A stretch of DNA of 64,000 bases from Marsupella aquatica (lineage: Eukaryota > Plantae > Marchantiophyta): positions 17,015,651 to 17,079,650 of the forward strand of contig OZ316891.1 in assembly GCA_973895155.1 (NCBI GenBank). Reading direction: 5' to 3'. The notes beneath the pieces are model-generated. The model was not told the DNA's origin and ran no database searches. It saw only the letters and a program-made list of their open reading frames with translations. The position numbers and the translations under genes are program-made. Positions 1 to 62,645 of this stretch are shown here, in pieces (the stretch's first letter is position 1; each line of letters opens with the position of its first letter).

Positions 1-1998
1 GAGGGGAAATGAGAGGAGCACAGCAAGTTGTGGGACTCCTTAAGGAATGCTTCAACTTTTGTTGGAGCGTACAGGATTTCAAGGGATATTGATTTATGGT
101 GGAGATCTGGGAACTATGTTACAGGAAAACTTCGGATGCTCCAAGGCTGGCTTTCGTGGTGGGTTGTCCGATGGTGTCAATGGGGAAATTTTATTCGTCT
201 GGTGAGTTTCTTAATCATATTTGTTCCTCATAATTGACATTAATACCAGCGCTCGGCGCTAGCATTACTAAGTCATTCTTCGGATTACCCAGGACTGTTA
301 TTCCGTTCTATTTGTGAAATTATTTTGATCATATTCATGGTAGCGCCCGGCGCTAGTTTACTCGTAGCTTTATAATATGATACTGTGGCTCATAATCATA
401 GTTGACGCTGTTTGGATATTGCTTTATTTAATATGGTTTCAAATACACATTTCCTTAACATTGCTCCTATGTTTAATCCAGGACAAAAGTGTCAAAGAAA
501 GTGCTATGATTCCCAACTGTACAACTTCGGAAGCGGCCCATTCTATAATGAAAGCTTGGCAAACAAAGAAGAAAGCTGGTCTATTCGAAGCTTGTGAGAT
601 GGATCAAAACAGAGCATTGTCGCAAGTTGCGGCATATACAGCCTATCGGAGGGGGCTAAATCGTGGTAAGGGGCCTACGATATGGGAATTGGCATTCCGT
701 TCTACAGATCAAGCTGGTTCTTCCAAACTTTTCCAAGATGCTTCTAATATGCTCCTTTTCGGTGCGGCTGAATTCAACCTGGAAAGGAATGCCCCACTGA
801 ATGGGGATGTTATGACAAAGTCCATGAAGAGGAAAGGACAAGCCACAGGGAACGTCTCTGCACAAGACTCCCATCGGCATGACACTATTCTGGTAACATC
901 GCCAAATACTCGTGGTATGAAGAGAAAAAATTTGAATAGGGAGGAGTTCTCCCTGTTGAGCAGACTCCTCCTGTCTGTGAGAATGTTGTGGTGGATATAT
1001 CTGATAGTGATATCGGAGAAGACATTGATTGGACTACTCCACCTTGGAGGAGAACCACCAGGTCTTGTTTGGATCCGCGAGCTGCACCTCCCACTTGTGA
1101 ACGGCCTTTCAATCAGTCGTTAGTGTTGGAGACGGATGTCCGACCTGGTGAATGGCACCTACGAAGAACGACCAAACATGGAGCAGGCCCTCAATGTAAT
1201 GGATCGTTGGGTGGGAGATCAGATCGAGATGAATGTCGCAATCGTCTGAAAAAGGTTGGGTACCCGTCAACAGATGGAGTAGTTGGCATTGTTGTGAAAG
1301 GTCATTGTATATTCAGGGGAGAACCACATCCTGAAATGATTTGGTTTTGTGCGAACAATGCTTGCTATAAGAGTTGGCCACGTCGTAATGTCGTGAATCT
1401 TCCACCATTTCCCTATACGCTTCCTGTTCTGAAAGGGACTAACCTTTCTGAAGCAGAAGTCCAATTCTTGACGGAGAAAGGGGTCCAAATCGGTCGTGAG
1501 GCCGGAACTCAGCATGTTCCATCTCCGTTTGAGTTGCGAATCAATGTAAATGTTTTCCCTGAGAAAATCAATCTCCTAGAGCCAAATATTCGCCTTCGGA
1601 GTAGAAATGGGAAGAATACAATCCCACGATCAAATCTTTCACAAGGTCACTACACGAGAATTGAATCTGCCAGCAAGGAGCCCATGACCCTAATTCGGCA
1701 GTGCGATGTTTCCAACGGGAACTCTTGGGGAAAACAATTTCAAATCCAAACCCATGAGAAACTCCGAACTGCAAAGACGTACTGGATGCAAATTTGCATT
1801 TTCCCGTGTTGTTCTTGTGAGGACTTCTATCATCGCCATTCCCATGGAAGACCCTACATGCCTTGCAAGCACCTATACTGGGTGTATACCAACGTCCTCA
1901 AACTTGATGTCGTGGATTCAACACTGGCTAGTCAGCCGATTCTCACTGTGGGGGAGATTAGGCTCATTCTTGCACGGCAGAATGCTCTGAATTTATAG
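1..1998 (+). pseudogene. Mutator-like transposase, copy A1 (3' part: end of DDE core plus SWIM finger), one intron at 202-481
   Basis: WLSWWVVRWCQWGNFIRL|GTGAG...ATCCAG|DKSVKESAMIPNCTTSEAAHSIMK (third catalytic E region) and C-terminal SWIM CSCEDF..PCKH. Frameshift near 940. Colinear with the copies at 40600-44417 and 15695-28958. Confidence 0.8.
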
Positions 1999-2663
1999 GG
2001 GAGATATTTAGGAACGTTGAACGGCTCCTATCTTGTTTGTCGCATATGCAAGTTTTATTTCCTTTTTTTATACCAAACACTCTTTGCATTTTCATAACAT
2101 ATTGGTCGATTTTTTATTCTGACTCTGGTTAGCGTCGGGCACTACTTTGAATTGGTCAAACCTATTTGGGTGGTCCAATGTGTTTCAGATTGTATAATAC
2201 ACTATATGTTTGTTTCCTGAATCTAAGGCAAGATTGATACGCGGAAATATAATATGGGTAGCGCCAAACGCTACTATACTCTGATGATACTCCACTCATA
2301 ATGTTGTATGTCATGTTGGAATATACGGAGCTTGAAGGCATTACTATTTCATTTAGTTGTACCCATTGGTATAATGTATTAATGTAAATATGATGGCGAT
2401 AGTTTTGAACATGTACATTTTTTAAAAATGAGGCTCATCTTATTATTTTTATCAGGGTGGGACCCACAATATTGACTCACGCATATTGTCAGTACTATTA
2501 TAGTCAGAACTAGCGGGTAATTTGTACAGCAAATCCTGGCTACCATGTCTATCCTTGGGACCGTAAAATGACCCTAAAACCTAATGAGTTTCTTGGTACC
2601 AGAAACTGTTTTGCTGTTAACAGGATTCCTGGTTTGCTGTTTCCTGTCTCGGTGGCCATGCCC
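1..2663 (+). mobile_element. Right part of DNA transposon copy A1; ends at the conserved terminus CTGTCTCGGTGGCCATGCCC (2644-2663)
   Basis: Terminus resembles the reverse complement of GGGTATAGCGACGGAGACAG at 40001 and 60526. Contains four TAGCGCCNGGCGCTA-type palindromes (247, 341, 2130, 2259). Confidence 0.65.
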
Positions 2664-2669
2664 ATAGTC

Positions 2670-8869: not shown

Positions 8870-10312
8870 TCATTGTCTCCGAGATGACATCACGCCATGA
8901 CCCATGTCAGATAAGCTCTTCACTTTGACATGTAAAGTCAGGACTTAAGTCGGAGAGGCTCTCCGAGATGACATGTAAAGTGGGGACTTAAGTCGGAGAG
9001 GCTCTCCGAATTGACATGTAAAGTGGGGACCTAAGTCGGAGAGGCTCTCCGAGATGACATGTAAAGTGGGGACTTAAGTCAGAGAGGCTCTCCGAGTTGA
9101 CATGTCATGGAGGACCCATGTTAGAGAGGCTCTCCGAGATGACATGTAAAGTGGGGACTTAAGTCAGAGAGGCTCTCCGAGTTGACATGTCATGGAGGAC
9201 CCATGTCAGAGAGGCTCTCCGAGTTGACATGTAAAGTGGGGACCTAAGTCGGAGAGGCTCTCCGAGATGACATGTAAAGTGGGGACTTAAGTCGGAGAGG
9301 CTCTTTGAGTTGACATGTCATGGAGGACCCATGTCAAAGAGGCTCTCCGAGTTGACATGCAAAGTGGGGACGTAAGTCGGAGAGGCTCTCCGAGATGACA
9401 TGTCATGGAGGACCCATGTCAAAGCCTCTCCAAAATTGAATATTACACAAGATCAGACCTCTGAGAGGCTCTCCAAGATGACATATCAGGTTGGTGATAA
9501 CTTTGGAGAGCCTCTCTGACAAATATTGGGCCTAATCCTTGCTACACACCTGAAGATGGCATCTCGGAGAGCCTCTCCAACATCCCTAAACCCTTCATAC
9601 CTGCGCAAGATGGTATCTCGAAGAGCCTCTCCAACATGGGTCAAGGCTACATACCTCTGCAAGATGGCATCTCGGAGAGCCTCTCCAAGATGAAACTTGG
9701 TGAGATCCGGTGCAAGATCTAATCTCGGAGAGCCTCTCCAAGATGGGTCAAGGCTACATACCTGCGCAAGATGGCATATCGGAGAGCCTCTCCAAGATGA
9801 AACTTGGTGATATCCGGTGCAAGATCTAATCTTGGAGAGCTTCTCCAAGATGGGTCGAGGCTACATACCTCCGCAAGATGGCATCTCGGAGAGCCTCTCC
9901 AAGATGAAACTTGGTGAGATCCGGTGCAAGATCTAATCTCGGAGAGCCTCTCTAACATGGGTCGAGGGTACATACCTGTGCAAGATGGCATATCGGAGAG
10001 CCTCTCCAAGATGAAACTTGGTGAGATCCGGTGCAAGATCTAATCTCGAAGAGCCTCTCCAAGATGGGTCGAGGCTACATACCTCCACAAGATGGCATCT
10101 CGGAGAGCCTCTCCAAGATGAAACTTGGTGATATCCGGTGCAAGATCTAATCTCGGAGAGCCTCTCTAACATGGGTCGAGGGTTCATACCTTCGCAAGAT
10201 GGCATGTCGGAGAGCCTCTCCAAGATGAAACTTGGTGAGATCCGGTGCAAGATCTAATCTTGGAGAGCCTCTCTAACATGGGTTGAGGCTTCCAGATGGC
10301 ATCTAAGAGAGC
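8870..10312. repeat. Tandem arrays built on palindrome ATCTCGGAGAG-S-CTCTCCGAGAT (upstream of transposase B)
   Basis: Units of ~39 bp with centre G (8940-9480), then units of ~45-55 bp with centre C (9500-10310). Spacers are themselves repeated. Confidence 0.92.
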
Positions 10313-15512: not shown

Positions 15513-17640
15513 TCATAAGAATGAATAACAGTTTTCACATACTGTTTGCTGATTAAGTTACGCTCTTGAGAAACAAAGAGGAATTGAGCAAGCCGGAAAG
15601 GCAATAACATCCCTTACATGAACGAGGCATCTCTTGGTAGATGCCACTTGAACTCTCTTGGTGCTCATTTTTAGTCTTTCTTCAAGTGGTTATCATGGCT
15701 GGCCGTGTGAGGATCACGTTTCCAGACAATGGAGACGTTGTTGTGCTAGTGACTGATGGTGTTGTTCGGCATACACCAGACAACGAATTAGCTCGTCGGT
15801 TCGATGTTGAGATTGGGGAGTGGGCACTCTTTGAGGCCGGCGATGTCTTACCATTGATTGAGGCAGACTCAGAGGAGAGTGGAGAGGAAAGGATATGGCA
15901 TCTGAAAAGTGAAGTTTCGTACGTCCTTCAGCAGAGGGTGTACTCTGTTCCTCTTACTGAAGTTGGTTTGCAATCTCAAACTGGAGAGAAGATTTCAGAG
16001 TGGCCGGCAGAGGTAGAGCAAGCCAAATTGTAAGTGTTGTTGCTGCAATGCTGAAAGGGAAAGGCACTTTGTGATGTGTAAAGGCTGCCCATTCCATTCT
16101 CAGAGTGCATTATCCACAACGAGTCATGACTCTGCCGGAATGGTATGATGGGGATTGCATTTTTGAGCTCCCCCCATTCACAGGTATCCACACAAAGGGT
16201 GCCTTCTTCTTGGGTATGGAGCGGAGAAATGACTGCTACTTGTGGAGCAAGCTCATCGAGACAGGGGCCCAAATTGGACCCAACCTGAACAAGGGAGGCT
16301 TCAAGTATAAGATTGGGAATGTGAGATGTCTGGCTCTTTGCAATGTCCACATTCAGATTGTCCAGCTTTTACAAGTAAGAATTAGCGCAATTGCACAGAA
16401 TGGCAGCGAGATAGGGGTGGGAGAAATGAGGTTCAATTTCCTGTTGGGCGACTAGTTCCAGCAGAGAGTGTGATTTGCGCCTTTTGTGATCGGCCTCCTA
16501 AGTGTATAGCCAAGTTATTCGACCCCTCAAGCCGTACTCAAACCGGTACCAACCTCCGGCATGAACACGGCAATAGATTCCGCTATCACCAAAGGTGGGG
16601 ATGGCGCGGCCCAAGCCAAACTACTCAGTAATGAGGCCGGTATCCCAGATCCACCTCTTGAGCAGGCCGGGGAGGCTGTAGCCGAGGCTGAGGCTGTAGC
16701 CAAGAATGATTTCCAAGCCGAGGCCGAAGCCGAGGGTGGACCCAGTCAGGCCGATGAAAAGTTAACTCGGTCAGAGGCAGGTAATATGTCAGAGGACGGA
16801 CCAACGGCAATGGTTGCAGAGGGAGCGTTGGGGGCGTCCATTGAGGATCCACCACCGGTGTCGTGACGGTGCAAGGGCGCCATTCCTTTTAGGAAGGGCG
16901 GACGTGGAGGGAGGAGGCGTGAGTGGGTAGAGCGGGCTCAGATCTCTAAGTTTAGAATTAGGATCAGGACCAGGAGGCGGCCGTAATACTTAGCTTAGTG
17001 GGATTGCGGATCCACTGGTAAGATCAACACTTGTACTTCTGCCTCGCTGTACATAGGTTGATCCAGTTAGGTAGATTAGGCTTACGCTGCAAAGAATTAG
17101 GCGGATCCACTACCAGGATAAGTACCTGGGCAGCGGGGAGCTCAGGGCCTCTTCTTTAGCAAGTTTTTAGTTTGCACCAGCCGGGCTGGGATCAAGTAGT
17201 AAGAGAAGCTCTCGGTTAGTCATACAATGACCCTTGTGTATATTCATGTTTCCTCATGCCTAAGAGCTGAATAGAGTTGGCCTCACAGCTTAGTTCGCAG
17301 AGCTTGTGTATGAGATGTACTGTTTGTATGACAAGTGCATGGTATGACTCAGTCAGAAGGAGTCATTTTGCTATTTGTGTGTCGCATTAACTTGTGTGAA
17401 GAGTGCCCACATCAACTAACAGTAGGAAGGAAAGTAAGCAGGGGAGTGAGAGTTGGATGTGTCGAGCTGAGAGAGGTCTTAGCGGCTTAACCAAGCCTAT
17501 TGGGGATCATTCCGACGACGGAATCCAAACATACCTAACCAGAAGGAGAGGAAGACAAGGGAAGGCCTAGATTAGGCCGGCTATGTATCTCATGACCCGA
17601 TGAAGGATCTGTCCAGTATATGTGTGTAAAATGTTAATAG

Positions 17641-20621
17641 TGTTGTAACTCATACTTGAGTTAAGTCTACCTTTGGGATAACTACCTATGTAACTACCCT
17701 AACTACTTAGGCTGTAGCCACATGTACATATTCTACCAAGAGTAAAGATGGAACCAACTCTTTGTCTCATTTCTCCCACAACACGTTATCAGCACGAGCC
17801 TAAGACTGGCTGAATTTTTAGGCCATGACTGATTCAACCTAAGACAAAGAAAGGAGGGAGAGCCCTGAAGACGTGATTTGAATGTGCCAAAGTTTTTTTA
17901 GTTTTTTTCTGCTAGAACTGCTTGAAGCGCTGCAGCTCGCTTTGCACTCTGAATTGAGGCGGAATGTGGACGAAGATGGCATTTGATGTTAGCTTGAATG
18001 CGGCCAATTGTGTGAAGGGAAAGCGGAATGTATTGTGAGCAAATGGCGTCCGCATCGTTTGTTGTTGGCTTGGGCTATGCACGTTGGGATCCTGCTCGTC
18101 CTAAGTTTCATGGTTGCTATTGGATGTCTTCTTCTCATTTTTAACAAATTTTTTGAGCAATGGATTCCCTCGATCTTGGTGTCTCTGTCAACTTTAAGTG
18201 CAGAATTGCGATGATGCCTCGTCGATATTTCAGTTTTGAAGCGACCTATTGCCTCGGAAGTTATCAAATTCCTAGGTTAATTCTGCACAGTGGCAAGGAT
18301 TACGAAGATATCATGGTCCCTGCGGAATTCCTGCTGTGTCTCTTCATTCCTGCCGTGCAATGAGGACTGCGGGAAAGGCAATGCTATCCCCGCTTAGGGT
18401 CTTAGTTCCCAAAGTCACACAGTGATTCTTTCATTGTTATCCGCGAATGAATTTTCATCGTAGTCCTGCTTTGCATTCTGAACTGGCCTGCGCCACATTA
18501 GTTCACACATGCGTCAATAGTCCTGGTCCAGTCCGTTTCACTATGTTCTCTTACTCTTTCTCCACCGGTACTACCAATCTGTTTGTGAGTTCCTGGAGTT
18601 GATGAAGTTAATTGGATTGATTTCTCATTCTTCTTACCGAAAACTGTGACCAAGAAAACTATGCAAGCACATTGAATTGAGAGCGAAGCCACTGGAAACT
18701 CCTACAATTGTCCGGAGGTCTGCTACGTTGAAAGATAGCAATGCAAGGAATGCGGTGAATTGTGTCATGCAACTACATTACGGTAAGCCGCGGATAAAGG
18801 CCTCGGCTGCTCAGGAGATGTCGCCCGAGTACGAGGAAAACAAAGTGGAGAAGAGAAGAGGGGACTCGGACACTCTGTCGCGCCGCGGAAAGTTCTCTCC
18901 CTTAGGCATTTTTTGTGCCTTCGTTTTCTTCTTCCTCGTTATCAAAGGCAAACACAAGGATGAGGAAAGTAAGGAGGATAGCGATGACCAATGGGAGTCC
19001 CAAAGTTACGGCACCTATAGCACAGAAGGACACAGAATGCCAATTTTGGTAAACAACAGTTCTCGTGAGATTGGCAGTATGCATGGATAAGATGGAACAA
19101 TCCACGACCAGGGGTAGGGGCATTGGTGTTATGAGCTTACGAGTTGACCATTGGAAGCACGAACCAAGAGAAGCTTGGAGAAAAGAGGATAAGAGCACGA
19201 AGGGAATGCGCGCAGCAAAGAACAAATCTCGCAACAAAAATGCTGAAACGTCGAGAAAACGTCGAGAACATACCGCTAAGTGCAAACCCTCCTTAATTGC
19301 AAAACCCATCAAATAGATTTGCGTATACAAAGAACAATGTGCACTGAACCAGGGAAACACACATACTAAGAACGGGGACGAAATGGCATTAAAATGAAAG
19401 ATATCTATTGGAAAGATTACCATATAAGAATTGCCATTCACAAATTCAGGGGGAGAATTGTTTTTCCCAACGTGCCTACTGCATTTAAAAGCTGCCTACG
19501 GCACTTAAAAGTTCAGCTCCGTGCCTACTACACATGGAAGCCAATGAGTGCGTACTGCACATGGAAGTAAATGACAAATTGAGGGGGAGACCTCAAGTAA
19601 GACTTGACATCAAGCAATGTAACCCATGGGATGTGCCTATTGCACAAGTGCCTTTCGCACCAATGAATACCTAAAAATGGAACTCTATTCCATGCATATG
19701 GCAAATCATGAAATCTAAGGAATTTTTATAAATGATTGAACATGGTGTTAACACAATCACTTACCAATACTTGATGAGGTATACTGGATATTAAAGTACC
19801 ATATGATAATATGAGGTACAGTACAAGGTCATAAGGTACCATAAGGTGAGACATGGCATGGTAAGGCACCATAAGAGATGGTGCGCCATATGGGATGATA
19901 ACCCTATGTTATGGATATGGTACGTGATATGGTTCAAATAGGTTATGCCCACACCAAATCTAGGATTGGACACCCAATCCAATTCCAAAGCCATGGATTA
20001 CACCATATCATCTTCATTTTGTACTAATACTTTGCTTTGTCATGGCATGTAATCTGTGACCATCAAGGAGTCTCCATTTCCCGATTGGAAGGAGACACGA
20101 GAAACAATCAACCAAGGAGGATCTTCAACAAGCCTATAGTGCTGACAAGCACCTTAAGAGACTTTGTAGAAATTACACATACACTATATGCTTAAACCCA
20201 ATTATGTTACACCCATGGGGATGGTAATACTCTTTCCTCCCACAAAGAAAGTAGGGGAGGTTTTAATGAGGTTACATCCCCCACTTACACTTTACCATAC
20301 AACATGAATTATAAGACATCTATTAGGAGAAGCTTGACATTCATTTATAGTAGACTTGAGATGACTACACCACTTATAAAATAGGCTAGACATAAACAAA
20401 ACCTATTGTATACCACTGAATATACCCAAAGTAGACTCTTGATTGTAACATTTCAACCCCAATGTTACAAAGGGGGAGTGTTGTAACTCATACTTGAGTT
20501 AAGTCTACCTTTGGGATAACTACCTATGTAACTACCCTAACTACTTAGGCTGTAGCCACATGTACATATTCTACCAAGAGTAAAGATGGAACCAACTCTT
20601 TGTCTCATTTCTCCCACAACA
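17641..20621 (+). mobile_element. Non-autonomous Bianca-like Copia LTR element (143-bp LTRs at 17641-17783 and 20479-20621)
   Basis: TG...CA LTRs identical by eye; TSD AATAG (17636-17640, 20622-20626); PBS CGTTATCAGCACGA (17784-17797); PPT AAAGGGGGAG (20469-20478); no gag/pol motifs inside. Confidence 0.9.
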
Positions 20622-20780: not shown

Positions 20781-20827
20781 GCATTTCTTAAGCCGTGAGA
20801 TATGAAGTTAGAAAGGAAGCATAGGTA

Positions 20828-44417: not shown

Positions 44418-44662
44418 TTTAAGATCATCCAACCCAAAAACACTCAGTTCACGATAATGAATGACGTCTTCGAATGTACACAATGGTATTCATAGTGAAT
44501 AATCCGTTTGTCAGAGCCGTTATAATACGACAAAAACACTACTGGTCGAAAGCACATCTGACACAATAAATGTTTTTTGTCGTTATGTCAACGACATTTA
44601 CACTAATGAGCCTAAGATGTCCGTTTCCAAAGAGCATAATCATGATAATTAAATCATGTTAA

Positions 44663-45048
44663 TTGAGTAGCGCCCGACGCTACTCAAACATCCTACCTTC
44701 AACATGGACCCAAAATGGTGAAATATATGAGTAGCGCCAGGCGCTACTCAAACACACACCGTAAATTATGGTATAAAACTGGTATGTTTTATCCGGGGTT
44801 TCAGAATAAATACTAAATGTTTGTAGCTAATTTTTTTAATATTATCTAAAATATTACCAAAATGTGCCCATTTAATATTAGCGTCGGGCGCTAATCCAAA
44901 ACGGTAATCATGACATTCATTTATGGAAAAATATTCAAAAATTGTATTCATTTGGCTTTTTATTGTATACTTGACAGCAATGTTGACCTAACTTTGGGAA
45001 ATTTTATGGTTTAAATTGTGATGATTTTGAGTAGCGCCTGGCGCTACT
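44663..45048. promoter_or_regulatory. Cluster of four TAGCGCCNGGCGCTA palindromes in the divergent intergenic region
   Basis: Copies at 44668, 44732, 44879 and 45032; two have extended arms (TTGAG..CTCAA 44663-44687; TGAG..CTCA 44728-44750). A regulatory role is inferred. Confidence 0.55.
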
Positions 45049-45376
45049 ATTGACCAATATCCGATTTGAACTAGGAATATATATTAAATTCAACGAACTG
45101 TTCTTTAACGGTCATATTCAACGGTAACGTTAGGTCGCGTAACGTCGAAGATATGCCAACGGTATTCGGACAACTAATCCAGAATTGACAAGTGGTGCTC
45201 AAGAGATAGAAATCAATGTAGCAAGGGGATAGTTTAGAGATGATACTCTCCCCCCCTCCCTTGTCCGCTGTATTTAGGTTCCGTTTCGGAGGTTCTTCGT
45301 GCAAGAATTCTCTAGAAGAAGTACGGTACGAATGAGGTACTCATCACGATCGTGAAGCACTTCGTGTCTGAGAAAC

Positions 45377-48300
45377 ATGGACCTTCTCCCCACTACCTCG
45401 CATGGGTATAGTGCTAATGGGCAGAGAGAGCAGATCCATTCGCAGACATCCGAGTGCTCGTTTTCTGGATCTGTTTACAATCGTCGAGTGACACGGTCTA
45501 CAACATCCCAAGCTCCCAAAATAGTCTCTGTAGTCACATTTCCGAAGAGCAGGAGAGCGAAGATGGACGATCTCAACACATACGCTGTGGAAGATCGAGG
45601 AGAAATGTCGCTGACGATGTCCAACGTTATCTCCAAGCACGTTATGGTGTTTGGCAAAGATTTTCGAGGGCACGACAAAGACCCCCCAAGGATTCCAATG
45701 TGCCGCTTGGTTCACATGGAAGTTGTCCGCACCTTACAGAAGGGAAGTCCTTCAATTGAAAAGTTGAAGGACTCTTTTCGTAGCACAGGATACAACTCAA
45801 AAATCGGAATGTTATTCTATGTCCAGCCGACAGATTCGAATGGGAATGTCCAGACGTGTACTCCAGAAATTCGAGCTTCCTGGGACCCGATGTGGGTGGC
45901 CGAGAACGAGAAGTTTGAAGCTGAATGTGCGGCCGATCCAGACTTCATGGTGTTACAAGATAAGATGTTTTACATTTTTGACGGTAACCATCGACTTTAC
46001 ACATGGTCGATCGTTACAAAAGAAAATCCGGAAGATATCAAGTATCACCCGCGTGTGCAATGTACTATCTTCAAGGGTGAAAAGGGATCTTTGATTGAGA
46101 TTGAGGCGGCTATGCATACTGTGAACCAGTAAGTCTCTCGTTGAATTTCACTTATCCTTATCTTTTATAGTGTAGTTTTTACTAGCGCCTGGCGCTATTG
46201 ACTGACAAATTCTTCTGTAGACTTGGACAGGCCGTGGTGGAACCTTCCTGGATACTTGATGCAGACCGAATTAAGAGGATTTTGTCCAATGATCTAGAAT
46301 ACTACAAATCAATCATCGATGGGGCAAACTTCAAGAAGTTTGGGCAGGTGATGCAGAAGACTCGAAAAGGATCGTGGTATTCCAAGAAAATGCCTCAAGA
46401 AGCACTTCTGTATATCTTATGCGAGAATAAGATTAAATCCTATTCTCGACAATTCAAAATGGACATGGAGTCGGCTACCGCTCAGGGAAATCCTTGGTCT
46501 CGGGAAGAGACATCCAAACGACATGCGGTCATGATGAAAGAAGCAACGAACGATTGGGCGATCAAGGTCTCAAAGATCACTCCCTTGTTGAGTCCAGAGT
46601 TTGAAGACTTCATGACAACCTGTGCTGAGATGTATTCGATGACCGAGGTGAACAAACGCGAGAAGAAACTGGATGCGGTTGTCTGTACCATGGATCGTGC
46701 CAGGTTATTTACAGCAGTCTCCGCCCTTGACCCCAAATTGAGGAGCACTTTGTTAGTAGCGCATTGCACGCCAGAGCTCAGGAAGCAGTTCTTTCATCCA
46801 CAAAGTGTTAGTGATGACCCTGTGAAGCAGTGGTGCCACACTTGGCAAACTTGGAATAGCGTGGAGGGAATTGCTATTGGTATGCTGTAGACTGCCCTCC
46901 AGAAAATCAGTGAAATAATTCCTTCCAATCGATTGGAGGAATGGAAGTGTGAGTCTTATGATTCACTCATTGAAATAGTGTGCAATGATTTCAAAAAATT
47001 TGGGGATGCAGTGAAAGGTAAGTTTTTCAATACAATGTGGATGTCCAAGTACCCGGACAAGGAAGACTACACACTCAAGAATCAAAAGCGAGCGAAACGA
47101 TATGTCTATCGTTTCTTCATGCACATGGAGATTGTGAAGCCTGACTATTTTTGGGCTTACCCAACTGCTTTCCAGAATTGGGTCATCTGCGCAGATGGAG
47201 ACATTTTGGCCGAACTGTATTCGATGTATCCGGCTAAGGGTATACTTCCACCGAGGAAATTGTCAGAGTGGGAGAGAATTCACTGCCCTTGGTATCTTGA
47301 CACCGATAGATGGGATTCTCCTTTTGACGACACTGAGAAGGATGCTTTCCATAAACTGTCTAAATCCCAAGTTCCGAGACAATTTGTCTCCGACATGAAG
47401 CAAGGAATTGAGGGAGACGTCAACTCGTCGACGACTGAGTTGCAAAAAAAATGTGAAACCACAGTGGTTCATGTTGATCGAAGCCGAAAACCAAGAGCCA
47501 AAGCCAAGGCGGATGCCCCTGTGGCAAGTGCTAGTGCCAAGTCTGGGAAAAAACGTAAGCTACACCTCCTTTTTCCAACTTCCTTCTTTGTTAGCGCCTG
47601 GCGCTATCATGTGTCGTGAGTTTAATGTGTCATATTTCCCAAAATTAATGTGGGTGTTTGGTCAGCGCCTGGCGCTAACACTCTTTCTGTGCTTGACACC
47701 ATTTTGGGTAGGTGGTCGAAAATCTGATGCCGCCACGGATGACACAAAAGTCGATGCAACACCAGAAGTCTCTGAGGCCAACACTAGTGCCAATCCAGAC
47801 CCCATCACCCCTGTTGAGAAGGGGAAGGTTATAGTTCCTGTGGATGCTACAAGCACAAAGAAGAAGAAGAAAAGGACCGTCGATGTCTGGGAATCTTCGC
47901 GAGATAATGCTTCTGGGGCCGGTATCCAACGGGATGTGGGGACTTTCAAGACCAAACTCGGAAGACACTGTATGGTTGAATCAAGCTTGGCAGAATTTAT
48001 TGATAGTGCATTTAGTAAGGAAGAGAAGCCAGATTGGGTCTCAGACGCTGAGAAGTGGGGTAAGGATTTGATCAAATCGGGGTGTAGAGATAAAGGAATC
48101 ATTCGAGGTGGGAAGGAACGATCATTTGGGGTGAATGCGGGTTTCATCTATCTCCCAACTGGTTTGAAACCCACAATTGTTGACCGTCGGGTCCCGAAAT
48201 GGAATGTCACAGATCACACAGCAGCCGAATCATTCTTTCGGGCGATGGACCCTTTCCTTTCCGATGACGGAATGCTCGCTATCTTATACTCGGATGACCA

Positions 48301-49529
48301 CGATCAGATTTCCCAGGTCATTTCTGCATGTCAGCAATCCAAGAAGTTCATGTGCATCAATACGCACAACGTTTTCATGTCTGTCCCAATGTACAGATCC
48401 AAGACAGATGTCCAGGTAAATATTCTCTCTCAGTATAGCTATACTAGCGCCCGGCGCTACTCTTTCTTTCTTAGGAGGTCTTCTCTCTTGAGTAAAAGAT
48501 TTTTGAAATCCAGTTGGTTGGTCAACTTTTGCAAGTCTTCACTCTTAGACTGGACATATTTTGTCGAGTTTCTTTTAAAGGAAAGGTCCCAAAGGATCCA
48601 AGATTCAAGCCATTATCTAGCGCTGAAGATCCTTCAATCTCGAACCTTATTGGGCTACAATCTTTGAAGGAAGATCATTGTCCTGAACTCCATTTTATTG
48701 GGAATTCCCGACTGCCGGTTGGTTTTATGCAAACTGTCCTTGAACTCTTTACAATACCTAAGGATATTGTAATTGATTGGACCGTCGGCTCAGGTAGTAC
48801 GTTCATTGCTGGGGATTACTCGGGCCGTTTTGTCATCGGGTTAGAAAATCGTCTGGAGTTTGTTGAGACCGCTTTGAGGATTTTTTTGGACCTCATTTCT
48901 CCCAACCCTTTGGAGACACAACCTCCCCCTCCTCAAATAACCGGACGAAAAAAGAAAGATAGACTTAGATCTGTCCTCAACTTTGATTCGAACGAAGATG
49001 ATGGGACGCCAGAAGATGATGTTCCTGAGGATGTCAATGACGGCGGGAAAGAGGAAACCCGACATGATGGGTCAACGGAGGACAGCGAAGAGTCTTCCGA
49101 GTAATTTTCGTCTCTCGTAAGCTCCTTTATCCTTTCAATTGTTGGCTAATCTTCAATTCCGCCAGTTCTATCGGTTAAGTACTTACTTCCTCTTTCTCTT
49201 CTGCTTCTCTTTTGAGCAGGTCAGAATGGAACCAAAGAAAATGGTTTCAACTCCGGAGGAAAGTGGCTCGAAATATAATCATCACTCCCGAGAAGCCGTT
49301 TGTATTGCCATCATACGCTGAGAACGTCGCGAGGAAGGTAGAGAAATTTAGAACGCTCTGCTGGGAAACAAAAGGACTTAGGCTTCTTAGGGGAGTAGAC
49401 AGGAAGTTCATGAGGAACCCCTACGTAGATAATGTTTCTAGAAGCAAGTATATTGATGATGAGGCAGAGTCGACCGACAGATCTCATAGCTCCCAGAATG
49501 AGAGCTCAGAATCTGACTCTGAAGGGTAG
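45377..49529 (+). pseudogene. ParB/Srx-like domain + helical region + beta-class N4C/N6A DNA-methyltransferase-like domain, ~1,228 codons. Exons: 45377-46128, 46221-47554, 47712-48415, 48514-49100, 49220-49529
   Basis: ParB-like FYIFDGNHRLYTW; MTase-like FLSDDGMLAIL and RLPVGFMQTVLELFTIPKDIVIDWTVGSGSTFIAGDYSGRFVIGLE. GT-AG introns keep the frame; one in-frame TAG at 46888-46890. Confidence 0.75.
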
Positions 49530-50605
49530 CAATTTTCTCCTCTCTCAGGTCAAACTTCCTCCCAACTGTACGAGTATGCCCTTGGTTTTTGTTAGCGCCG
49601 GGCGCTATTGAATTTATTAAAAATGAATTGAGTTTTAGGGATGTTGCCCCTTCCTTTCAATGGTTAATGTGGTCTTGAGTACCGTCCTTTGTGTGGGTTC
49701 CTCGGCTTGGTTAATTGGCGCCCGCCGCTACCCAAAAAACACGTCGGAAGCTTCCGTTTGTTATTTGTCGTTTCTGCCCTAGTGTCATTTGGCTTTCACT
49801 CGAAGACTGGTACCGACAAGAGGACCTATAACGATAAATCCAAGCCCCTTATTGACATACTATTGTTTCTTTCAAAGTCCATTTCTCTTATTTTTCTCCT
49901 TCTTGATTCCATGGAAGGCCAGTTTATCAATGGCCCACGAGAGCATATGTCAACTTCCGATTAGATGGTTTCCACCAAGATCCAGATTGTCAGGACTCTG
50001 GGATTGATGATGAATGTCACTCTTCGAGATAGGACATTGTACGAGGAGGCACCCACCGGGAGTGTTAGCGCCTGGCGCTAGTTACAATTGTTCTGGAAAC
50101 TTTAGTGTTCCTAAGTAGAAATATTTGTACACCGAGGACAATATGTTTCACTTAAATAAAAAATCTCGGGTTTCTTTTCTTTCAATTTCCCTTTAGAAGT
50201 TATGACTCAGATACCTTGGTTAAGTCCTACTTCCGTGCTTTGATATTGAACTTAGACTATTATTAATGTTTGGTTTCTACTTGGATCTCAGCCTGAACAT
50301 CAATCCTAGGTTCTCGTGATTTTCTGCACAAAGAATTGGAAGCAGCCGACTCTAGTATTCGGCATGTTTGGGCGATTAATGTGTCATTATTTTGGGTTTT
50401 AACGCCCGGCGCTAGTATTCGGCATGATGCGTTTGTGATTATTTTTCCTGTAGACTCCCGACGCTAATATTTGGCATCGCATAATTATCAGTATTTTAGG
50501 AACGGATTTTTTTAATTTTGCCACAATACCAGGAGAAATGTGCTCCCAAAACAGGAAATTTTGTTGTTACCAGTTCCTGTTATATTTTGCTGTTTGCTGT
50601 TTACT

Positions 50606-53600
50606 GCCTTTTGTAAACACCTCCTGGTAGCCGCTTCCACAACTAGGCGCCGCTCTCGAATAAAATTGTCTACGGAAGGAACCTTGCTTTCCGTCCGCCA
50701 AGCTTCCGGATTTATAAACCAACACAAATGGCGTAAACCCCGTCGCCAAATGCTTGGTCAAGTTATACCTAAACTCGGCCATCGTTAAGTGCTTTGCCCA
50801 ATCCTTTTGATTGGTCGTCACAAAGTGACGCAAGTAGTCCTCCACGATACCATTAACCCGTTCCGTTTGGCCATCTGTCTTGTGATGATACGCTCATCCC
50901 CTGGCCAGGTCCGTTCCGGATAACCGGAACAACGCCTTCCAAAAATGGCCCGTGAACTTGGTATCATGATCGGACAGGATATGCAACGGCAATCCCCATT
51001 GTCGGAAGACATTGTCAAACACTAGACCGGCAACCTCTTGGGCCGAAGTAGGCAAGAAATACACCATCTTGGAAAATGATCCACGATGGTCAAGATGGAG
51101 TTACAGCCGTGGGACTCAGGTAACCCAACAATGAAGTCCATGGAGATAGACTCCCATGGAGCCGCAACTACTGGCAAGGGTTGCAACAGTCCTCCTTTTG
51201 CCCTATAGACCGTTTGGTTCTTTTGGCATGAGTAACAACTTTGCACGTGTTGAAGGACCGATTGCTTCATTCCAGCCAATACACATCTCGCGACATGCTG
51301 CGATACATAGCGGCTTGTCCTCCATGCCCTCCCCAGGGCTAGTCGTGGTACTTTTGCAGAACCTCTAACCTTAGAGACTCTGGTATGTACACACGCCTCT
51401 GCTTGTATCACCATAACTGAACATTATGCATCGTATCCAACCCCAATGATACATGCCTTACCTTGCCTTGGCTACCCCCATTGCTTTGCCATTCCTTAGC
51501 TAACCTGTCATCCCCATACGCCGCGGCCAGAACCTTTGGCCACTCGGATTTGAGCATCGTGATCCCATTGACACGATGTTAGTCCTTACGCGATAACGCA
51601 TCCGCTGCCGTATTTGTCTTCCCTGGAACGTGGCGGACTTCAAAATCAAAATCCGCCAAGAACATCTGCCAGCGCATTTCCTTGGGGTTCAGTCTTGGCT
51701 TAGAACTGAAATACCCGGCCGACGAGCTATCTGTGTGGATTACCACTTTGGGACCGTTCTTAAGGTAAATCTCCCACTTCTTCAACGCATAGATCACAAC
51801 ATACATTTCCCTTTCCGGTGTGATCCAATGATTTTCCAACTTACATGACTCAAAGGCCACAGGACGCCCATCTTGGCAAAGACAGGCGCCAATGGCGTAA
51901 TCACTTGCATGTGTCCAAATCTCGAACGGTTTCCCATCTTAGGTAACTTTAGAACCAGCGGCGTTATCATTAGCCACTTAAGTTCCAGGAATGCTAACTC
52001 GCAATCCTGAGTCCACACAAACACTTTGTTTTTCAATGTTAGCGCGTTTAGGGGCCTCGCGATCCTTGCATAGTCTTTCATGTATCTTCGATAGAACTCC
52101 GTAAATCCTAAGAAGGCTCTAACCTGCCTTACATTGGACGGGCGCTCCCATTCTTTGATCTCCTTAAGCTTGTCCTGACTAGGCGTAATCCCTTCCAGGG
52201 TAAAGGTATGGCTGAGGAACTGAATCTTGTTCATCGCAAACTTGCACTTGCTAGGTTTAGCAAAGAGACAAGCCTTACAAAGGCGAGAGAACACTTCTCT
52301 GAGCAACTGCTCATGTTCCTCCAACGTTTTTGAGTAGATTAGGATGTCGTCAATAAAGACGACCACTCCTTGGTCCAACAAGTCATGAAAGATGGTATTC
52401 ATCATCTTCATGAACATTGCGGTTGCATTACACAACCCAAACGGCATAACCAAAAACTCATAGGATCCGAACCTTGTGCGCATTGCGGTCTTATACTCGT
52501 CTCCCTTAGCCATGCGGATCTGGTAATACCCAGACCGCAAGTCCACCTTTGAAAACTTCTTAGCTCCGGAGAGGCAATCGAAGAGGTCATCCATATGAGG
52601 TAACGGGTACTTGTTCTTTATCATTTGCTTATTGAGTGCCTGGTAATCTGCGCACAATCTCAAAGTACCATCCTTTTTGGACAAAAACAGTGTGGGCGCC
52701 CCGTAAGGACTCTTACTAGGGCAAATGAACCCTTGGTCAATCAACTCTTCCAAGGCGTTCTTCAACATTATTCGCTCGTTCAGGTTCAAACGATAAGGAG
52801 CTTTAGCCTGAGGAGCCGATCCCGGCTCCAACTCAACTTGGTGATCCACTTCTCTCCTCGGGGGTAAACCTTTAGGTAGCTTCTGCGAGAGCATGTCGTT
52901 GAATTCCTCTAAAATTTCAGGAATTCGACCGCAGTCAGGCCTGACCTTAGCTGACTTGACCTTTGGCTGCGAAACAGCCTCCTTAGTTGGGTGGAGATGA
53001 AAGAAGAAACATTCATGTCCACCCTTGAAGTCTTTCCACCATTGCTTTGCCGATACACACGGAGACAACCATGACACTTTACTTACTTTGAGAAATCTTT
53101 CTTTATTTTTGGTAACTTCGTGTACAACGATGGGCTCACCACCCTTATTGGGAAAATGGAGCACCTCACCCCCCGGTTTCAAGGTAATATTGTGCTTTGT
53201 GAGATAACCTACCGACAAAATGAAGTCTACGGCTAGACCGTCTAGAACGTAGAACATCTCCTGACTAACAAAATTTTGTTGCTCGCCTATGACCTCTACT
53301 CAAAGTCTATGTACCACTCTCGACACTATCCCCTTTGTGTCGTTGGAAAACTTGCACACTAACGGTTGTAGCAACTCTTGCACGTCCACCCCAAGACGTG
53401 TTGTCGCCTGCCCACTTATGAAGCAGGCGGTCGCGCTTGTATCCACCAACGCAACACCCAGACTACCGTTAGAAGTGACATTCACAAAAATCAGTTTTTC
53501 AGGATCCATTGTCTTAACCTTAGGTATCTTCTCTTGCAACAACCCCCTCTCTCCGGCAGGAACATCCCCTATAGGGACTTTGTCAGCTACTAAGGGTTTG

Positions 53601-59896: not shown

Positions 59897-59949
59897 TCCA
59901 ACAAAAGGATCAAAAAAATTGTTATTGTCTTCTAGACGGGTATAATGGG

Positions 59950-62645
59950 AGACTGTTCGGACAGTGATATGATAGTGCCTCCCTTCCTTTGCGCCACTTG
60001 CATTAGAGTTTTGCGTTGAGCTACCTTCCCCTCCTGGAAGTTTCCATAAGGATTTCGCGAATCATGCGACACCCTCCAACGACAGTCACCAAGTCGTTGG
60101 CGGGGACATTCACGACAATCTTCAATAAATGCAGCAGCTCCGATTGTGTCCACGTATTCTGAATTGAGAGTGTCATATCGACAATAGCAAGTGATGCCAT
60201 AATCCTCTCCCTACAACTCGTCAAATCAAAAGGAGGCTCCGCGGAAGCAAGAAGATTCCCAAAGTAAAATATTCGATATGGATCCATTCTCTCACGGACA
60301 GTTCCACCAAATTTTTTTGGTAAATATTTCGTAACCTATTCTTCAAAGGTTCTGGCATATTGGATTTTGCAGAGACTTTGACTGAACTCTTGAAATAAGC
60401 ATTGTCCACCATCGAGCAACATCGATCCAATTCTTCATTGGTGAAATCCCGGGTGAAATTAAACTCGCGGACCACGTCCGACCAAACGGCCCTAACATTG
60501 AAAACATTTTCATAGGTCTCCGCGGGGGTATAGCGACGGAGACAGGAAACAGGTAAATAGGATTTTTTTCCTATTTTTAACATGCTGTTACTAGGAAAAA
60601 ATCACTATTACCAGGAAAATGACAATTTAAAAATGTATTCTAAAACATGTCATTTTCAAAAAAAATTAACAATGCAACATTTTTGGCTAGCTTTGGGCGC
60701 TACTATTAGCAACGCCGGGTGCTAGCAAAAAAACTGGTCGACCGAAAGAAAAAAGAATTAAATTTCAAAAAAAATTCAAAAAACATTTGCACCCATTTTC
60801 CTGTTACCAGTGTTTTTCCTGTTACCAATTTCTGTTATTCCTTACAAACCAGTTTCTGTTATTAACTCATGTTTCCTGTTTTGTTGTCTTGAGAGAGGTA
60901 GTACCGCAAGATTGCACCTTTCAGCTTTTCCGTATATTTGGCTTTCATTGCAAGGTCGGACATTGAAGGTATATCTGTCCTTGCATGTCTTCTCTTCATC
61001 AAGAGAACCTCTCCCGATTGAAATTTATTCAAGATAGTGGTAATGCCGGATTCTTGCGCCCCCTCAAATACCCTGAATGTCATCCCCGTTAGTTGCTTTG
61101 CTTCCCTCTTCTTCCCAGTCATCTCTCCATTGTTGTCAGGTAAACTACCGGACAACCAACTATTGCAGACGGACATCCACAACTTATAGAGGCTCTCCGA
61201 TGCAAAAAGGATCCAATTGTATTTGCTGATGCTATTCGCTTTTAGTGTGACTTTGGCCAACCCTTTGTAATCTTGAAAACCAACAACAAATGGTAAGAAC
61301 AACACACTAAACCAAACCTTTGGAGAAGGTATCTTAGAGCCAAGTCTTGGATTCTACACGAGGCTCGTGTGGACCACAAAAGAATTATGGTGTCAACAAC
61401 AACGGACCTGGAATTCCTGGGATTTTGCCCTGACGGCACTGGCCAAACTGGTCAATTCATTTATGAATATTGCATTCTGGCATGCCTCACCTGGTCGATG
61501 AATGGTGACAAGAAACGATGTGCTTCAACTTGCAAGTTGTTTGCATGTGAAATCTCAACCAACACCTTAACAGGTGTTGACCCCTTGAGAATTCTTGCAC
61601 GATGGAATTTGAGGAGGTTGGCAGTCTCAACCAGAGATGGCTGCGTTCGAAAACTTTGAATGATTTTCCTAGCGGCCATAGTCAAGTGTTGACCACTAAT
61701 TGCAAAATATTGATACTTGGATAATTGTTTTGAATCAAAATCTTTGATTGAAAGATCAATAAGATTGTAAACACCATTAATCATCTTGTAAGGCACCAGA
61801 TCTGCAGGCAAAGGTTCCTGATTGGCATTTGAAATCATCAACTGAACAAGATGGTTGACATGGTCTTTGTTGAGTAACCGCTCATTCATTTTTGTCGGCG
61901 GAGGATAGATATTCATCAAAGGAACCAGGAAGAATTTTGACAGCCCAAAAGAATACCAGCATCGGTTTGGCTGCAAAGTCTTTTCTGCCCTCTCAAGTTG
62001 AGCTCGATCAACGATTACTTTAGAACTTGAGTCAGCATTCATCTCAACATTCATGTCAACAATGTCATCCATGACATCCATCTCAATCATCTCCACTTTC
62101 TTACGTTGTTTCTTTGGGATTGGGACACCGGTTTCCGGAGCCTCTTCCTTTCCGTTAGTCTCTCTTTTGCGGCCTCTTCCACGCTTGGACTTCTCTGATC
62201 TTGTAACGCCAATGTCTGTGGATACGTCTTGCACTTGAGTATTCACCTTTTGAGAAGTCGGATTTGGTGCAGATTTTGAGGGCACCTTTTGTTTCACGAC
62301 AGAGGAAGGCTTTGCAGTGGAGGCCTTTGCAGTGGAGGCCTTCCTAGATAATTCCTTCTTCACGATACCCTTTGATATGGGTTTTCTATCTCTTTGACAA
62401 CTACTTGCTTCTTTTGAACCTTCTTCCTCACAGCCTTCTTTTGTTCTGGCATTTCAACTACTTTAATCTTCTTCTGTGGTTGTTTGGACTTTGCGATCTA
62501 TGGCCCTTTCACCTCAGTAGAGCTATTGCGGATTTTTTCCTGAGGGACTTTGACTTTCTCAACATTCTTAGAACCCACAATTATATTCAGAGCAATCTTT
62601 GAAGACAATCTTTTCTTGTGGGAAGGAGGAGCTTCTTCTTCAATT
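59950..62645 (-). pseudogene. Second ParB/Srx-like gene (K-rich N-terminus, ParB-like core ~61500-61950), interrupted by a MITE and truncated by an LTR
   Basis: ERLLNKDHVNHLVQLM...YQYFAISGQHLTMAA...LVEISHANN; downstream ORF pieces 60862-61305, 60221-60526 and 60021-60287. Confidence 0.55.
60526..60866. mobile_element. ~340-bp non-autonomous derivative (MITE-like) of transposon family A
   Basis: Starts GGGTATAGCGACGGAGACAG, identical to 40001-40020. CCTGTTACCAG-rich right end; degenerate palindromes at 60688 and 60710. Removal rejoins the host frame (GNM|xAETYENVF). Right boundary uncertain. Confidence 0.7.

What the first reader, a model, noticed from the sequence alone, without database searches (positions are those of the whole stretch)
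247..60724. A 15-bp palindrome TAGCGCC-N-GGCGCTA marks the non-coding DNA of one transposon family (candidate parS-like or self-recognition array)
Seen: about 23 perfect or near-perfect copies. A1: 247, 341, 2130, 2259. A3: 40374, 40483, 42173, 42286, 44668, 44732, 44879, 45032, 46183, 47592, 47663, 48445, 49593, 49716, 50066, 50400, ~50451. MITE: 60688, 60710. They lie in introns (two in the transposase intron of both A1 and A3; three of four introns of the ParB-MTase gene), the divergent promoter and subterminal regions. I saw none in exons, the retroelements or PXN. Flanks are unrelated, so these are dispersed sites rather than tandem duplicates, and most mismatches are C>T/G>A. Established: bacterial ParB binds ~16-bp palindromic parS sites, and CCWGG/CCSGG are targets of beta-class N4C methyltransferases such as M.MvaI and M.BcnI. 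Inference: the sites are bound by an element-encoded protein (ParB-MTase or transposase), coating the element for anti-silencing, self-marking or synapsis; the CCNGG centre could be the methylation target.
Basis: partly seen in the sequence, partly recalled or inferred. Interest (0 to 1): 0.92.

Follow-up and report, generated by a model that had tools for sequence, protein, structure and literature searches.

The report
Transposon-borne ParB with family-specific palindromes
A plant DNA transposon family has a short palindrome throughout its non-coding DNA and carries a gene for a protein predicted to fold like bacterial ParB, which likely binds those palindromes to keep the element active.

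Summary
The motif is real: 20 sites at up to 2 mismatches against 0.09 expected. It is really a 19-bp site, R-N-TAGCGCC-N-GGCGCTA-N-Y. All 16 sites in element A3 are non-coding (P about 1e-7). A3 (40001-50622) is a multi-copy, Mutator-like transposon with a 9-bp target duplication and degenerate ends. Between A1 and A3, the transposase introns share nothing but the motif. A metagenome relative has the same half-site with no spacer in the same intron. A distant relative in this window (A2) has a different palindrome, in tandem arrays, in that intron. So the palindromes are family-specific and selected. A liverwort homologue of A3's second protein is predicted to fold like ParB's nucleotide-binding plus DNA-binding domains (Z 8.5). 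Its methyltransferase-like domain lacks the catalytic aspartate in this family, and the central CCNGG is the least conserved part, so self-methylation is unlikely. Best reading: a VANDAL/VANC-like self-recognition system built on a ParB fold (about 0.55); binding by the transposase is the main rival. A similar ParB-plus-inverted-repeat arrangement was already proposed for red-algal Plavaka transposons. Binding is untested.

The parts
40001..50622 (.). Element A3: complete Mutator-like DNA transposon with short degenerate ends, inserted in a chromodomain Ty3 retrotransposon
   Evidence: 9-bp duplication CCTGGTAGC at 39992-40000 and 50623-50631; empty-site joints 39997>50633 and 39991>50628 in one run; host has Pfam Chromo/SH3 at 39470-40333 and RVT at 51797-53299
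40600..44417 (-). A3 transposase gene (exons about 44417-42413 and 42132-40600): GCM-like N-terminal zinc domain, DDE-type core, C-terminal CxC..CxH cluster; this copy has a frameshift near 44150-44190 and a private stop at 41434-41436
   Evidence: translation; 8 homologues at 44-63% identity; atlas score 0.93 to a cluster in which 12% carry GCM; other contigs have a sense codon at 41436; no Pfam hit at E<=0.01
45377..49529 (+). Divergent accessory gene, predicted exons 45377-46128, 46221-47554, 47712-48415, 48586-49100, 49220-49529 (about 1204 aa): ParB-fold N-terminal domain (DGNHR), helical ParB-DNA-binding-like domain, acidic linker, degenerate beta-class methyltransferase domain; private stop at 46888
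   Evidence: splice sites read from sequence; homologues of 1191 and 1207 aa in Riccia; Pfam N6_N4_Mtase E 4e-8; fold of a homologue; stop absent in other contigs
40374..40497 (.). Two palindromes (40374, 40483) 3' of the A3 transposase
42173..42300 (.). Two palindromes (42173, 42286) in the A3 transposase intron (42133-42412)
44668..45046 (.). Four palindromes (44668, 44732, 44879, 45032) in the divergent intergenic region
46183..48459 (.). Four palindromes in introns 1-3 of the accessory gene (46183; 47592, 47663; 48445)
49593..50470 (.). Four palindromes (49593, 49716, 50066, 50400) and one decayed unit (50451) between the accessory gene and the right end
1..2663 (+). Element A1: 3' part of a sister element (66% nt identity to A3 in transposase exon 2), with sites 247 and 341 in the transposase intron (202-480) and 2130 and 2259 downstream; its end at 2663 is homologous to the A3 left end
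60526..60890 (.). Short non-autonomous derivative: left end 79% identical to the A3 left end, two 3-mismatch sites (60688, 60710); right end approximate, no target duplication found
15695..29630 (+). Element A2: distant sister transposase (35-37% aa to A3), broken by insertions (pieces 15695-16511 and 25266-28958), with a different palindrome ATCTCGGAGAG-N-CTCTCCGAGAT in tandem arrays in the same intron (26391-27322) and 3' region (from 29058)
8947..10279 (.). Two further tandem arrays of the A2-type palindrome, with different unit flanks; probably a remnant of A2-family non-coding DNA between two head-to-head LTR-like insertions (inferred)

Best explanation
The palindromes mark the non-coding DNA of a Mutator-like transposon family and are likely binding sites for the element's own accessory protein, which is predicted to fold like bacterial ParB and would keep cognate copies transcriptionally open. 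Steps. SHOWN: the sites are confined to non-coding DNA of the family, are conserved where all flanking DNA has diverged, and change between sister families (7-1-7 in A1/A3, the same half-site with no spacer in L001, a different 11-1-11 palindrome in A2). PREDICTED: the accessory protein has ParB's nucleotide-binding domain (conserved DGNHR) followed by a ParB-like helical DNA-binding domain. INFERRED: it binds each palindrome as a dimer, may use a nucleotide to clamp and spread between sites, and counters host silencing of its own family in trans, as VANC does for VANDAL and VirB does against H-NS. Its methyltransferase-like domain is likely catalytically dead and would act as a scaffold or base reader. 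The short derivative element would borrow both this activity and the transposase.
For: Motif statistics and non-coding placement. After masking the motif, the A1 and A3 transposase introns align no better than shuffles (score 19 against a null mean of 20; 34 unmasked). L001 has three copies of the same half-site in the same-position intron. A2 has 53 copies (<=4 mismatches) of another palindrome in four arrays with different unit flanks. An unbiased palindrome scan of the window finds only these two families. Mismatches are mostly one-sided and flanks show no excess pairing (P 0.09), which fits a double-stranded DNA site. The termini carry different repeats (AAACAG, TGTTACCAG), and the palindromes start 162-390 bp inside. 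The AlphaFold model of Riccia homologue P0163 (pLDDT mostly above 85 over residues 10-580) aligns over nearly the whole of M. xanthus ParB (7o0n: Z 8.5, rmsd 5.0, 193/194), C. crescentus ParB (7bm8: Z 8.5), B. subtilis ParB (6sdk: Z 8.2) and Noc (7ng0: Z 8.2). KorB is the top hit among 48,161 chains (Z 7.5, rmsd 6.1, 192/201). DGNHR or EGNHR occurs in 110 of the 163 proteins then held. Precedents: VANC binds a motif in introns, intergenic and terminal non-coding DNA of VANDAL21 (PMC5735166); VirB is a ParB-family anti-silencer that loads at a palindrome (PMC10653881); Plavaka PAG3 is a ParB-domain accessory next to inverted-repeat arrays (10.1101/2025.02.11.637652).
Against: There are no binding, expression or methylation data. 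The fold was predicted for a Riccia homologue, not the window protein (27-37% identical). The window's exon-2 pieces were misplaced in that alignment, and the single-sequence model of the window domain failed (pLDDT 37). Foldseek gave no hit at E<=0.001 (best 0.31). The Z-scores sit near the tool's own caution line of 8, with rmsd about 5 A and a long helical insertion in the putative helix-turn-helix. Pfam ParB was not hit. A2 carries its palindrome, but no ParB-like gene for it was found in the window (A2 is fragmented), and L001 is too short to show one. The transposase has its own candidate DNA-binding domain. CpG content gives no clear sign of hypomethylation (observed/expected 0.77-0.78 in A3, 0.67-0.73 in its host, 0.55 in A2).
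Confidence: 0.55

Rival explanations
1. The transposase itself, through its GCM-like N-terminal zinc domain, binds the palindromes, either to activate or autoregulate cognate copies or to assemble the transpososome on elements with degenerate ends; the ParB-fold gene does something else.
For: GCM-like domain (atlas 0.93, 184 shared features, GCM in 12% of cluster members). The motif type follows transposase distance: A1 66-80% identical, same site; L001 42-60%, variant; A2 35-37%, different. The short derivative keeps two sites. A2 shows a palindrome with no ParB gene found in the window. AtMu1 transposase alone binds and activates cognate copies (10.64898/2026.08.24.746577, section 7).
Against: In that paper the AtMu1 transposase acts at the termini, whereas these sites fill introns and the promoter and avoid the first 160 or more bases. 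The termini have their own repeats. Any element-encoded protein would co-vary with the transposase.
Confidence: 0.25
2. The sites are targets of the element's methyltransferase domain, which writes 4mC or 6mA as a self mark.
For: Pfam N6_N4_Mtase hit and beta-class order of motifs. A GxG SAM-binding-like motif is retained. One fern homologue has DVPF. Liverworts do use 4mC (10.1101/2021.02.12.428880).
Against: Motif IV reads FIYLPTG in the window family, with no Asp, and no variant restoring it reached 20% in 3 runs. 19 of the 20 homologues showing the motif (33 examined) have D[LM]P[ST], without the aromatic residue; MpDN4MT1 has TSPPY. CCNGG is intact in 13 of 20 sites, broken in the majority of copies at 48454, and absent in L001 and A2.
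Confidence: 0.08
3. The palindrome is a tiny mobile unit or footprint (TA-flanked) or a hairpin by-product that is tolerated only in non-coding DNA.
For: It begins and ends with TA. One L001 copy is the centre of a 60-bp perfect inverted repeat. Non-coding placement alone would follow from selection against exon insertions.
Against: It is absent from 44 kb of other, mostly decayed, repeat DNA in the window (1 weak hit). A purine is conserved outside the TA (39/40 half-sites). Sister families have different palindromes in the same intron, and the A2 type spreads by tandem duplication.
Confidence: 0.06
4. The sites are bound by a host transcription or chromatin factor, or work as RNA hairpins in introns.
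For: Many sites are intronic, and transposons often carry host-factor sites (general knowledge).
Against: Family-specific change of the palindrome fits co-evolution with an element protein. Mismatches break pairing without compensation. Sites also lie in intergenic DNA. No Rfam match.
Confidence: 0.06

Closest known systems
Plavaka accessory cassette of red algae (PAG2, PAG3; bioRxiv 10.1101/2025.02.11.637652)
   Same: A DNA transposon carries a ParB-like accessory (their best HHpred hit 7BNR is also among my top fold hits) next to inverted-repeat arrays, plus a PF01555 methylase gene. The authors propose self-binding and report homologues in Chondrus Mutator elements.
   Different: There the element is EnSpm/CACTA, ParB is fused to a 2OG oxygenase, the methylase is a separate gene fused to SET, and the repeats are tandem arrays beside PAG3. 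Here a Mutator-like land-plant element fuses ParB, a helical domain and a degenerate methylase in one protein, with sites spread through all non-coding parts and differing by family. Sequence homology to PAG2/PAG3 was not tested.
VANDAL/VANC of Arabidopsis (PMC5735166)
   Same: Non-TIR Mutator-like element with an accessory gene; a family-specific motif in introns, intergenic and terminal non-coding DNA; spread by tandem repeats (as in A2 here).
   Different: The VANC motif is a 9-bp non-palindromic motif arrayed in one orientation. The accessory here is ParB-fold. Anti-silencing is proven for VANC and untested here.
Bacterial ParB-family regulators on mobile DNA: VirB (PMC10653881), KorB (PMC13584720), BisD (PMC12409273); ParB-parS
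   Same: Predicted N-terminal nucleotide-binding plus helical DNA-binding domain; palindromic sites; regulation without partition (VirB has no ParA partner).
   Different: Eukaryotic intron-containing gene; DGNHR instead of GxRR (recalled consensus); long helical insertion; C-terminal methylase-like domain; no ParA. CTP binding and clamping not tested.
Spm TnpA and AtMu1 transposase as sequence-specific activators (bioRxiv 10.64898/2026.08.24.746577)
   Same: An element-encoded protein binds clustered family-specific motifs and activates cognate copies.
   Different: Their motifs and effects are terminal, and the binder derives from the transposase.
Marchantia MpDN4MT1 and phage ParB-linked beta-class methyltransferases (10.1101/2021.02.12.428880; PMC4738411)
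   Same: PF01555-type domain in a seed-free plant context; ParB-methyltransferase linkage in phage ParB-Tls loci.
   Different: The catalytic motif is degenerate here. MpDN4MT1 is a host gene with TSPPY that methylates genic CG broadly.

Membership tests
Mutator-like element (MULE) | 8-11 bp target-site duplication | tested here: met
   9-bp CCTGGTAGC both sides of A3; empty-site joints; range from PMC6446971
Mutator-like element (MULE) | MULE-type DDE transposase | tested here: inconclusive
   Conserved FD, ADNA, DxFH and ES motifs plus C-terminal Cys/His cluster fit the recalled MULE pattern, but no Pfam MULE hit and no structure was predicted for it
Mutator-like element (MULE) | Long terminal inverted repeats (absent in non-TIR MULEs) | tested here: not met
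   Ends share only short degenerate repeats: non-TIR type, as in VANDAL
VANDAL/VANC system | Family-specific motif in non-coding DNA of the element | tested here: met
VANDAL/VANC system | Accessory protein homologous to VANC | tested here: inconclusive
   No VANC sequence was compared directly; no Pfam family matched exons 1-3, and the predicted fold is ParB-like
VANDAL/VANC system | Accessory binds the motif and hypomethylates cognate copies | not testable with these tools
   needs EMSA/ChIP and methylomes; the CpG proxy was inconclusive
ParB CTPase family / parS | ParB N-terminal nucleotide-binding fold | tested here: met
   Homologue model against ParB, PadC, Noc, KorB and Srx, e.g. 6t1f Z 7.4, rmsd 2.8, 91 aligned; PadC Z 7.0, rmsd 3.2; atlas ParB_N lead 0.92
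ParB CTPase family / parS | Helix-turn-helix DNA-binding domain after the N-terminal domain | tested here: inconclusive
   Alignment spans ParB NTD+DBD (193/194 residues, model 27-390) but at rmsd 5 A, Z 8.5, with a long insertion
ParB CTPase family / parS | CTP binding, dimer clamp and spreading from the site | not testable with these tools
ParB CTPase family / parS | Partner ParA and role in segregation | tested here: not met
   A3 holds only two genes, neither a ParA
beta-class N4C/N6A DNA methyltransferase | Motif order IV ... I and PF01555 match | tested here: met
beta-class N4C/N6A DNA methyltransferase | Catalytic (D/N/S)PP(Y/F/W) motif | tested here: not met
   YLPT in the window family; D[LM]P[ST] in 19 of 20 homologues that show the motif, DVPF in 1 (33 examined)
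Plavaka PAG cassette | EnSpm transposase with PAG1-3 (ParB-2OG oxygenase; methylase-SET) | tested here: not met
   9-bp duplication, one accessory gene, no SET or 2OG domain hit; direct homology to PAG proteins not tested

The most novel reading that the evidence does not exclude
Seed-free land plants harbour a transposon-borne ParB/parS-like system. A bacterial-type nucleotide-dependent sliding clamp, fused to a dead methyltransferase, loads as a dimer at family-specific palindromes and spreads along its own transposon to defeat host silencing, with protein and palindrome co-evolving family by family. The same fold may underlie the uncharacterised DUF3723 cargo of fungal Starships and Plavaka PAG3, making ParB clamps a recurrent self-recognition device of eukaryotic transposons.
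Probability: 0.3. Interest if true: 0.92.

Novelty: new variant of a known kind. Interest (0 to 1): 0.74.

Why it matters
VANDAL/VANC is, by the Bostrychia authors' account, the only transposon system shown to bind and modify its own sequence. ParB-domain accessories beside inverted repeats have only been proposed, in red algae. This locus gives a sharply defined 19-bp site, two natural variants from sister families and a candidate binder with a predicted ParB fold. That makes it directly testable whether a ParB-type CTP clamp works on eukaryotic chromatin and how a transposon changes its specificity. Homologues of the accessory form at least 252 clusters at 50% identity, with named members in Riccia and Adiantum, so the system could have shaped repeat content in liverwort and fern genomes. 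Orthogonal protein-palindrome pairs could also serve as locus-labelling or epigenome-editing tools.

Tried and rejected
Genome-wide scan: impossible, no whole genome held. Single-sequence fold of the window ParB domain: pLDDT 37, not used. Sequence searches of solved structures with the transposase alignment, the ParB-domain alignment and a methylase domain: nothing below E 0.16. Word-based search for longer relatives of exon 1: none of 232 candidates scored, although the full HMMER scan found 252 clusters. Viral contigs: 38 pattern matches, none a transposase relative. Metagenome scan: 1 relative among 74 pattern matches. Prokaryotic or viral relatives of the ParB domain: not scanned, because the alignment gave no usable pattern, so the origin is untested. 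Homodimer prediction: tool unavailable, no verdict. Expression: no RNA holder listed, which is no evidence either way. CpG depletion as a proxy for hypomethylation: inconclusive and confounded by age. RNA hairpin: no compensatory changes, no excess flank pairing, no Rfam hit. Tandem Repeats Finder on A3: no array containing the motif. Target duplication for the short element at 60526: none found at <=2 mismatches near its right end. The KorB operator TTTAGCGGCTAAA shares TAGC with the half-site; four bases is too little to use. Earlier findings of the scan: none in three look-ups. Literature: no paper describing this land-plant element turned up in the listings. The library lacks most subscription journals, and Repbase-type reports (the Chondrus elements cited by the Bostrychia paper) were not seen.

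Full report
OBSERVATION. The two sites in the short element have three mismatches, and 50451 is a decayed unit. Counting both halves, the base two positions outside the core is a purine in 39 of 40 half-sites, so the site is R-N-TAGCGCC-N-GGCGCTA-N-Y. Of 14 mismatches, 9 are C>T/G>A and 8 fall at positions 6-7. The central CCNGG is therefore intact in only 13 of 20 sites (counted). At three mismatches, 22 of 23 hits lie in A1, A3 or the short element, and one lies in the other 44 kb. Flanks are about as unrelated as random non-coding positions (14.5 against 13.6 matches in 46), with traces of local duplication at 44668/44732 and 50346-50470. No genome was available for a genome-wide test.

THE ELEMENT. 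A3 runs from 40001 to 50622 between 9-bp duplications, inside a chromodomain Ty3 retroelement. Contigs of one run join across the empty site. All four runs laid cover every bin of it with many divergent contigs, so it is a multi-copy family. The stops at 41436 and 46888 are private to this copy. The ends are short and degenerate. A3-left, the A1 end at 2663 and the short element's left end at 60526 are homologous and carry AAACAG and TGTTACCAG repeats, and the nearest palindromes lie 162-390 bp inside. The transposase has 8 homologues at 44-63% identity, conserved acidic motifs, no Pfam match and a GCM-like N-terminal lead. I class it as a non-TIR Mutator-like element from the duplication length (PMC6446971, passages) and recalled motif pattern. 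The divergent gene has five predicted exons and about 1204 codons (splice sites), matching Riccia homologues of 1191 and 1207 aa. Its first exon has relatives in 252 clusters at 50% identity. Of the 18 such relatives looked up, 14 carry a species name: 10 Riccia sorocarpa and 4 Adiantum. A seed-free plant host is therefore inferred.

THE SITES ARE SELECTED AND FAMILY-SPECIFIC. All 16 A3 sites avoid coding DNA that makes up 62-67% of the element (P 1.6e-7 to 1.6e-8). The A1 and A3 transposase introns each hold two sites. Their best local alignment is centred on the motif, and with the motif masked they align no better than shuffles (P 0.70). The one metagenome relative recovered (L001; 1 of 74 pattern matches) has three palindromes in the intron at the same position, with the same half-site, no spacer and longer arms; one of them is the centre of a 60-bp perfect inverted repeat. 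A third, more distant member in this window, A2 (35-37% aa), has no copy of the motif. Instead it has ATCTCGGAGAG-N-CTCTCCGAGAT in tandem arrays in the same intron and downstream, and two more arrays lie at 8947-10279. That gives 47 copies at three mismatches (0 expected) and 53 at four, with different unit flanks in each array. An unbiased scan finds only these two palindrome families in the window. Mismatches are mostly one-sided, flanks show no excess pairing (P 0.09), and Rfam has no match. This is the pattern of a site for a dimeric DNA-binding protein that evolves with the element (inference).

THE CANDIDATE BINDER. A single-sequence model of the window domain failed. A model of the Riccia homologue P0163 on a 111-row alignment is confident over about residues 10-580; the window's exon-2 pieces were misplaced in that alignment. 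Foldseek gave no hit at E<=0.001, but Noc, ParB and sulfiredoxin lead its list. In the wide structural search KorB is first (Z 7.5, rmsd 6.1, 192 of 201) and PadC second (Z 7.0, rmsd 3.2). Re-alignment of Foldseek's rows puts ParB of M. xanthus, C. crescentus and B. subtilis and Noc at Z 8.2-8.5, rmsd 5.0-5.6, covering nearly all of their N-terminal and DNA-binding domains. These scores are near the tool's caution line, but the leading rows agree on one family. DGNHR or EGNHR occurs in 110 of 163 proteins held, and the language-model atlas points to DUF3723 (0.95) and ParB_N (0.92). The C-terminal domain matches PF01555. Its motif IV, however, reads FIYLPTG without Asp, and no restoring variant reached 20% in three runs. 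Of 33 homologues examined, 20 show the motif: 19 as D[LM]P[ST] and one fern protein as DVPF. In those runs, most copies of the intron-3 site carry G>A at 48454, which breaks CCNGG. I read the domain as likely inactive, and the methylation-target idea as unsupported.

MECHANISM. Best reading (0.55): the accessory protein binds the palindromes as a dimer, may clamp and spread with a nucleotide cofactor, and keeps cognate copies active against host silencing. The placement, conservation and family specificity of the sites are shown; the fold is predicted; binding, dimer, nucleotide use and anti-silencing are inferred. Main rival (0.25): the transposase binds them. For this rival, AtMu1 transposase alone activates its copies (10.64898/2026.08.24.746577; abstract and sections 4 and 7), and no ParB-like gene was found for the fragmented A2. 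Against it, those activities are terminal, while these sites are internal. CpG content does not decide the matter. Self-methylation (0.08), a micro-element or footprint (0.06) and a host factor or RNA hairpin (0.06) fit worse.

COMPARISON. It works like VANDAL/VANC, whose motif lies in introns, intergenic and terminal non-coding DNA and spreads by tandem repeats (PMC5735166, passages), but the motif here is palindromic and the protein ParB-like. It resembles VirB, KorB and BisD, which are ParB-family regulators on mobile DNA (PMC10653881 passages; PMC13584720 passages; PMC12409273 abstract). The closest precedent is in red algae. Plavaka transposons carry PAG3, a ParB-like domain fused to a 2OG oxygenase, beside tandem inverted repeats, and PAG2, a PF01555-SET protein; the authors propose self-binding without testing it (10.1101/2025.02.11.637652, section 8 and passages). 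I did not see its supplements, which may give the repeat units. The element here is not a member of that cassette. MpDN4MT1 has an intact TSPPY motif (10.1101/2021.02.12.428880, passages), and phage ParB-linked methylases are noted in PMC4738411 (passages). DUF3723 is uncharacterised Starship cargo (passages), and no paper held both DUF3723 and ParB. Listings showed no description of this land-plant element.

VERDICT. A real and well-supported feature, and a new variant of a known kind: transposon self-recognition by an accessory protein, proven for VANC and proposed for Plavaka. What is new is the land-plant Mutator-like setting, the ParB plus DNA-binding-domain plus dead-methylase fusion, and three family-specific palindromes in a homologous intron. 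Interest 0.74; about 0.92 if it proves to be a ParB-type sliding clamp (probability about 0.3).

Noticed in passing
window 26417-27202, 29058-29600, 8947-10279: Second palindrome family (11-1-11) in tandem arrays of sister element A2; four arrays share only the palindrome. No accessory gene for A2 found in the window.
   Followed up: partly
L001 1168-1227: One of three intronic palindromes is the centre of a 60-bp perfect inverted repeat, hinting that fold-back or template switching can create or extend sites.
   Followed up: no
window 45563-46126: Atlas look-alikes of the ParB-fold domain include DUF3723 clusters (0.94-0.95), the uncharacterised cargo of fungal Starships; DUF3723 may be ParB-fold.
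   Followed up: partly
window 57966-62453 (-): Another element with a Ulp1 protease (Pfam Peptidase_C48, E 4e-30) and an ORF (61464-62453) whose 'AISGQH' aligns to the DGNH box, not significantly (E 0.47). The short derivative element sits inside it.
   Followed up: partly
window 5132-8550 (-) and 10412-14166 (+): Two head-to-head, 84% identical LTR-like units starting with TG; their ORF resembles a plant mobile domain by recalled motif, but Pfam gave no hit.
   Followed up: no
window 40504/46179 and 42307/49585 (tables 5 and 5c): Other contigs join two motif-bearing pieces with 33-36 unrelated bases between, suggesting further subfamilies with the same palindrome in other flanks.
   Followed up: no
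window 15117-15510; 34990-35197; 35590-35748: Tandem repeats of about 82, 69 and 53 bp without either palindrome; the first lies just upstream of the A2 transposase.
   Followed up: no
window motif half-site: Shares TAGC...GCTA with the KorB operator TTTAGCGGCTAAA, and KorB is the top wide fold hit; too short to count as evidence.
   Followed up: no
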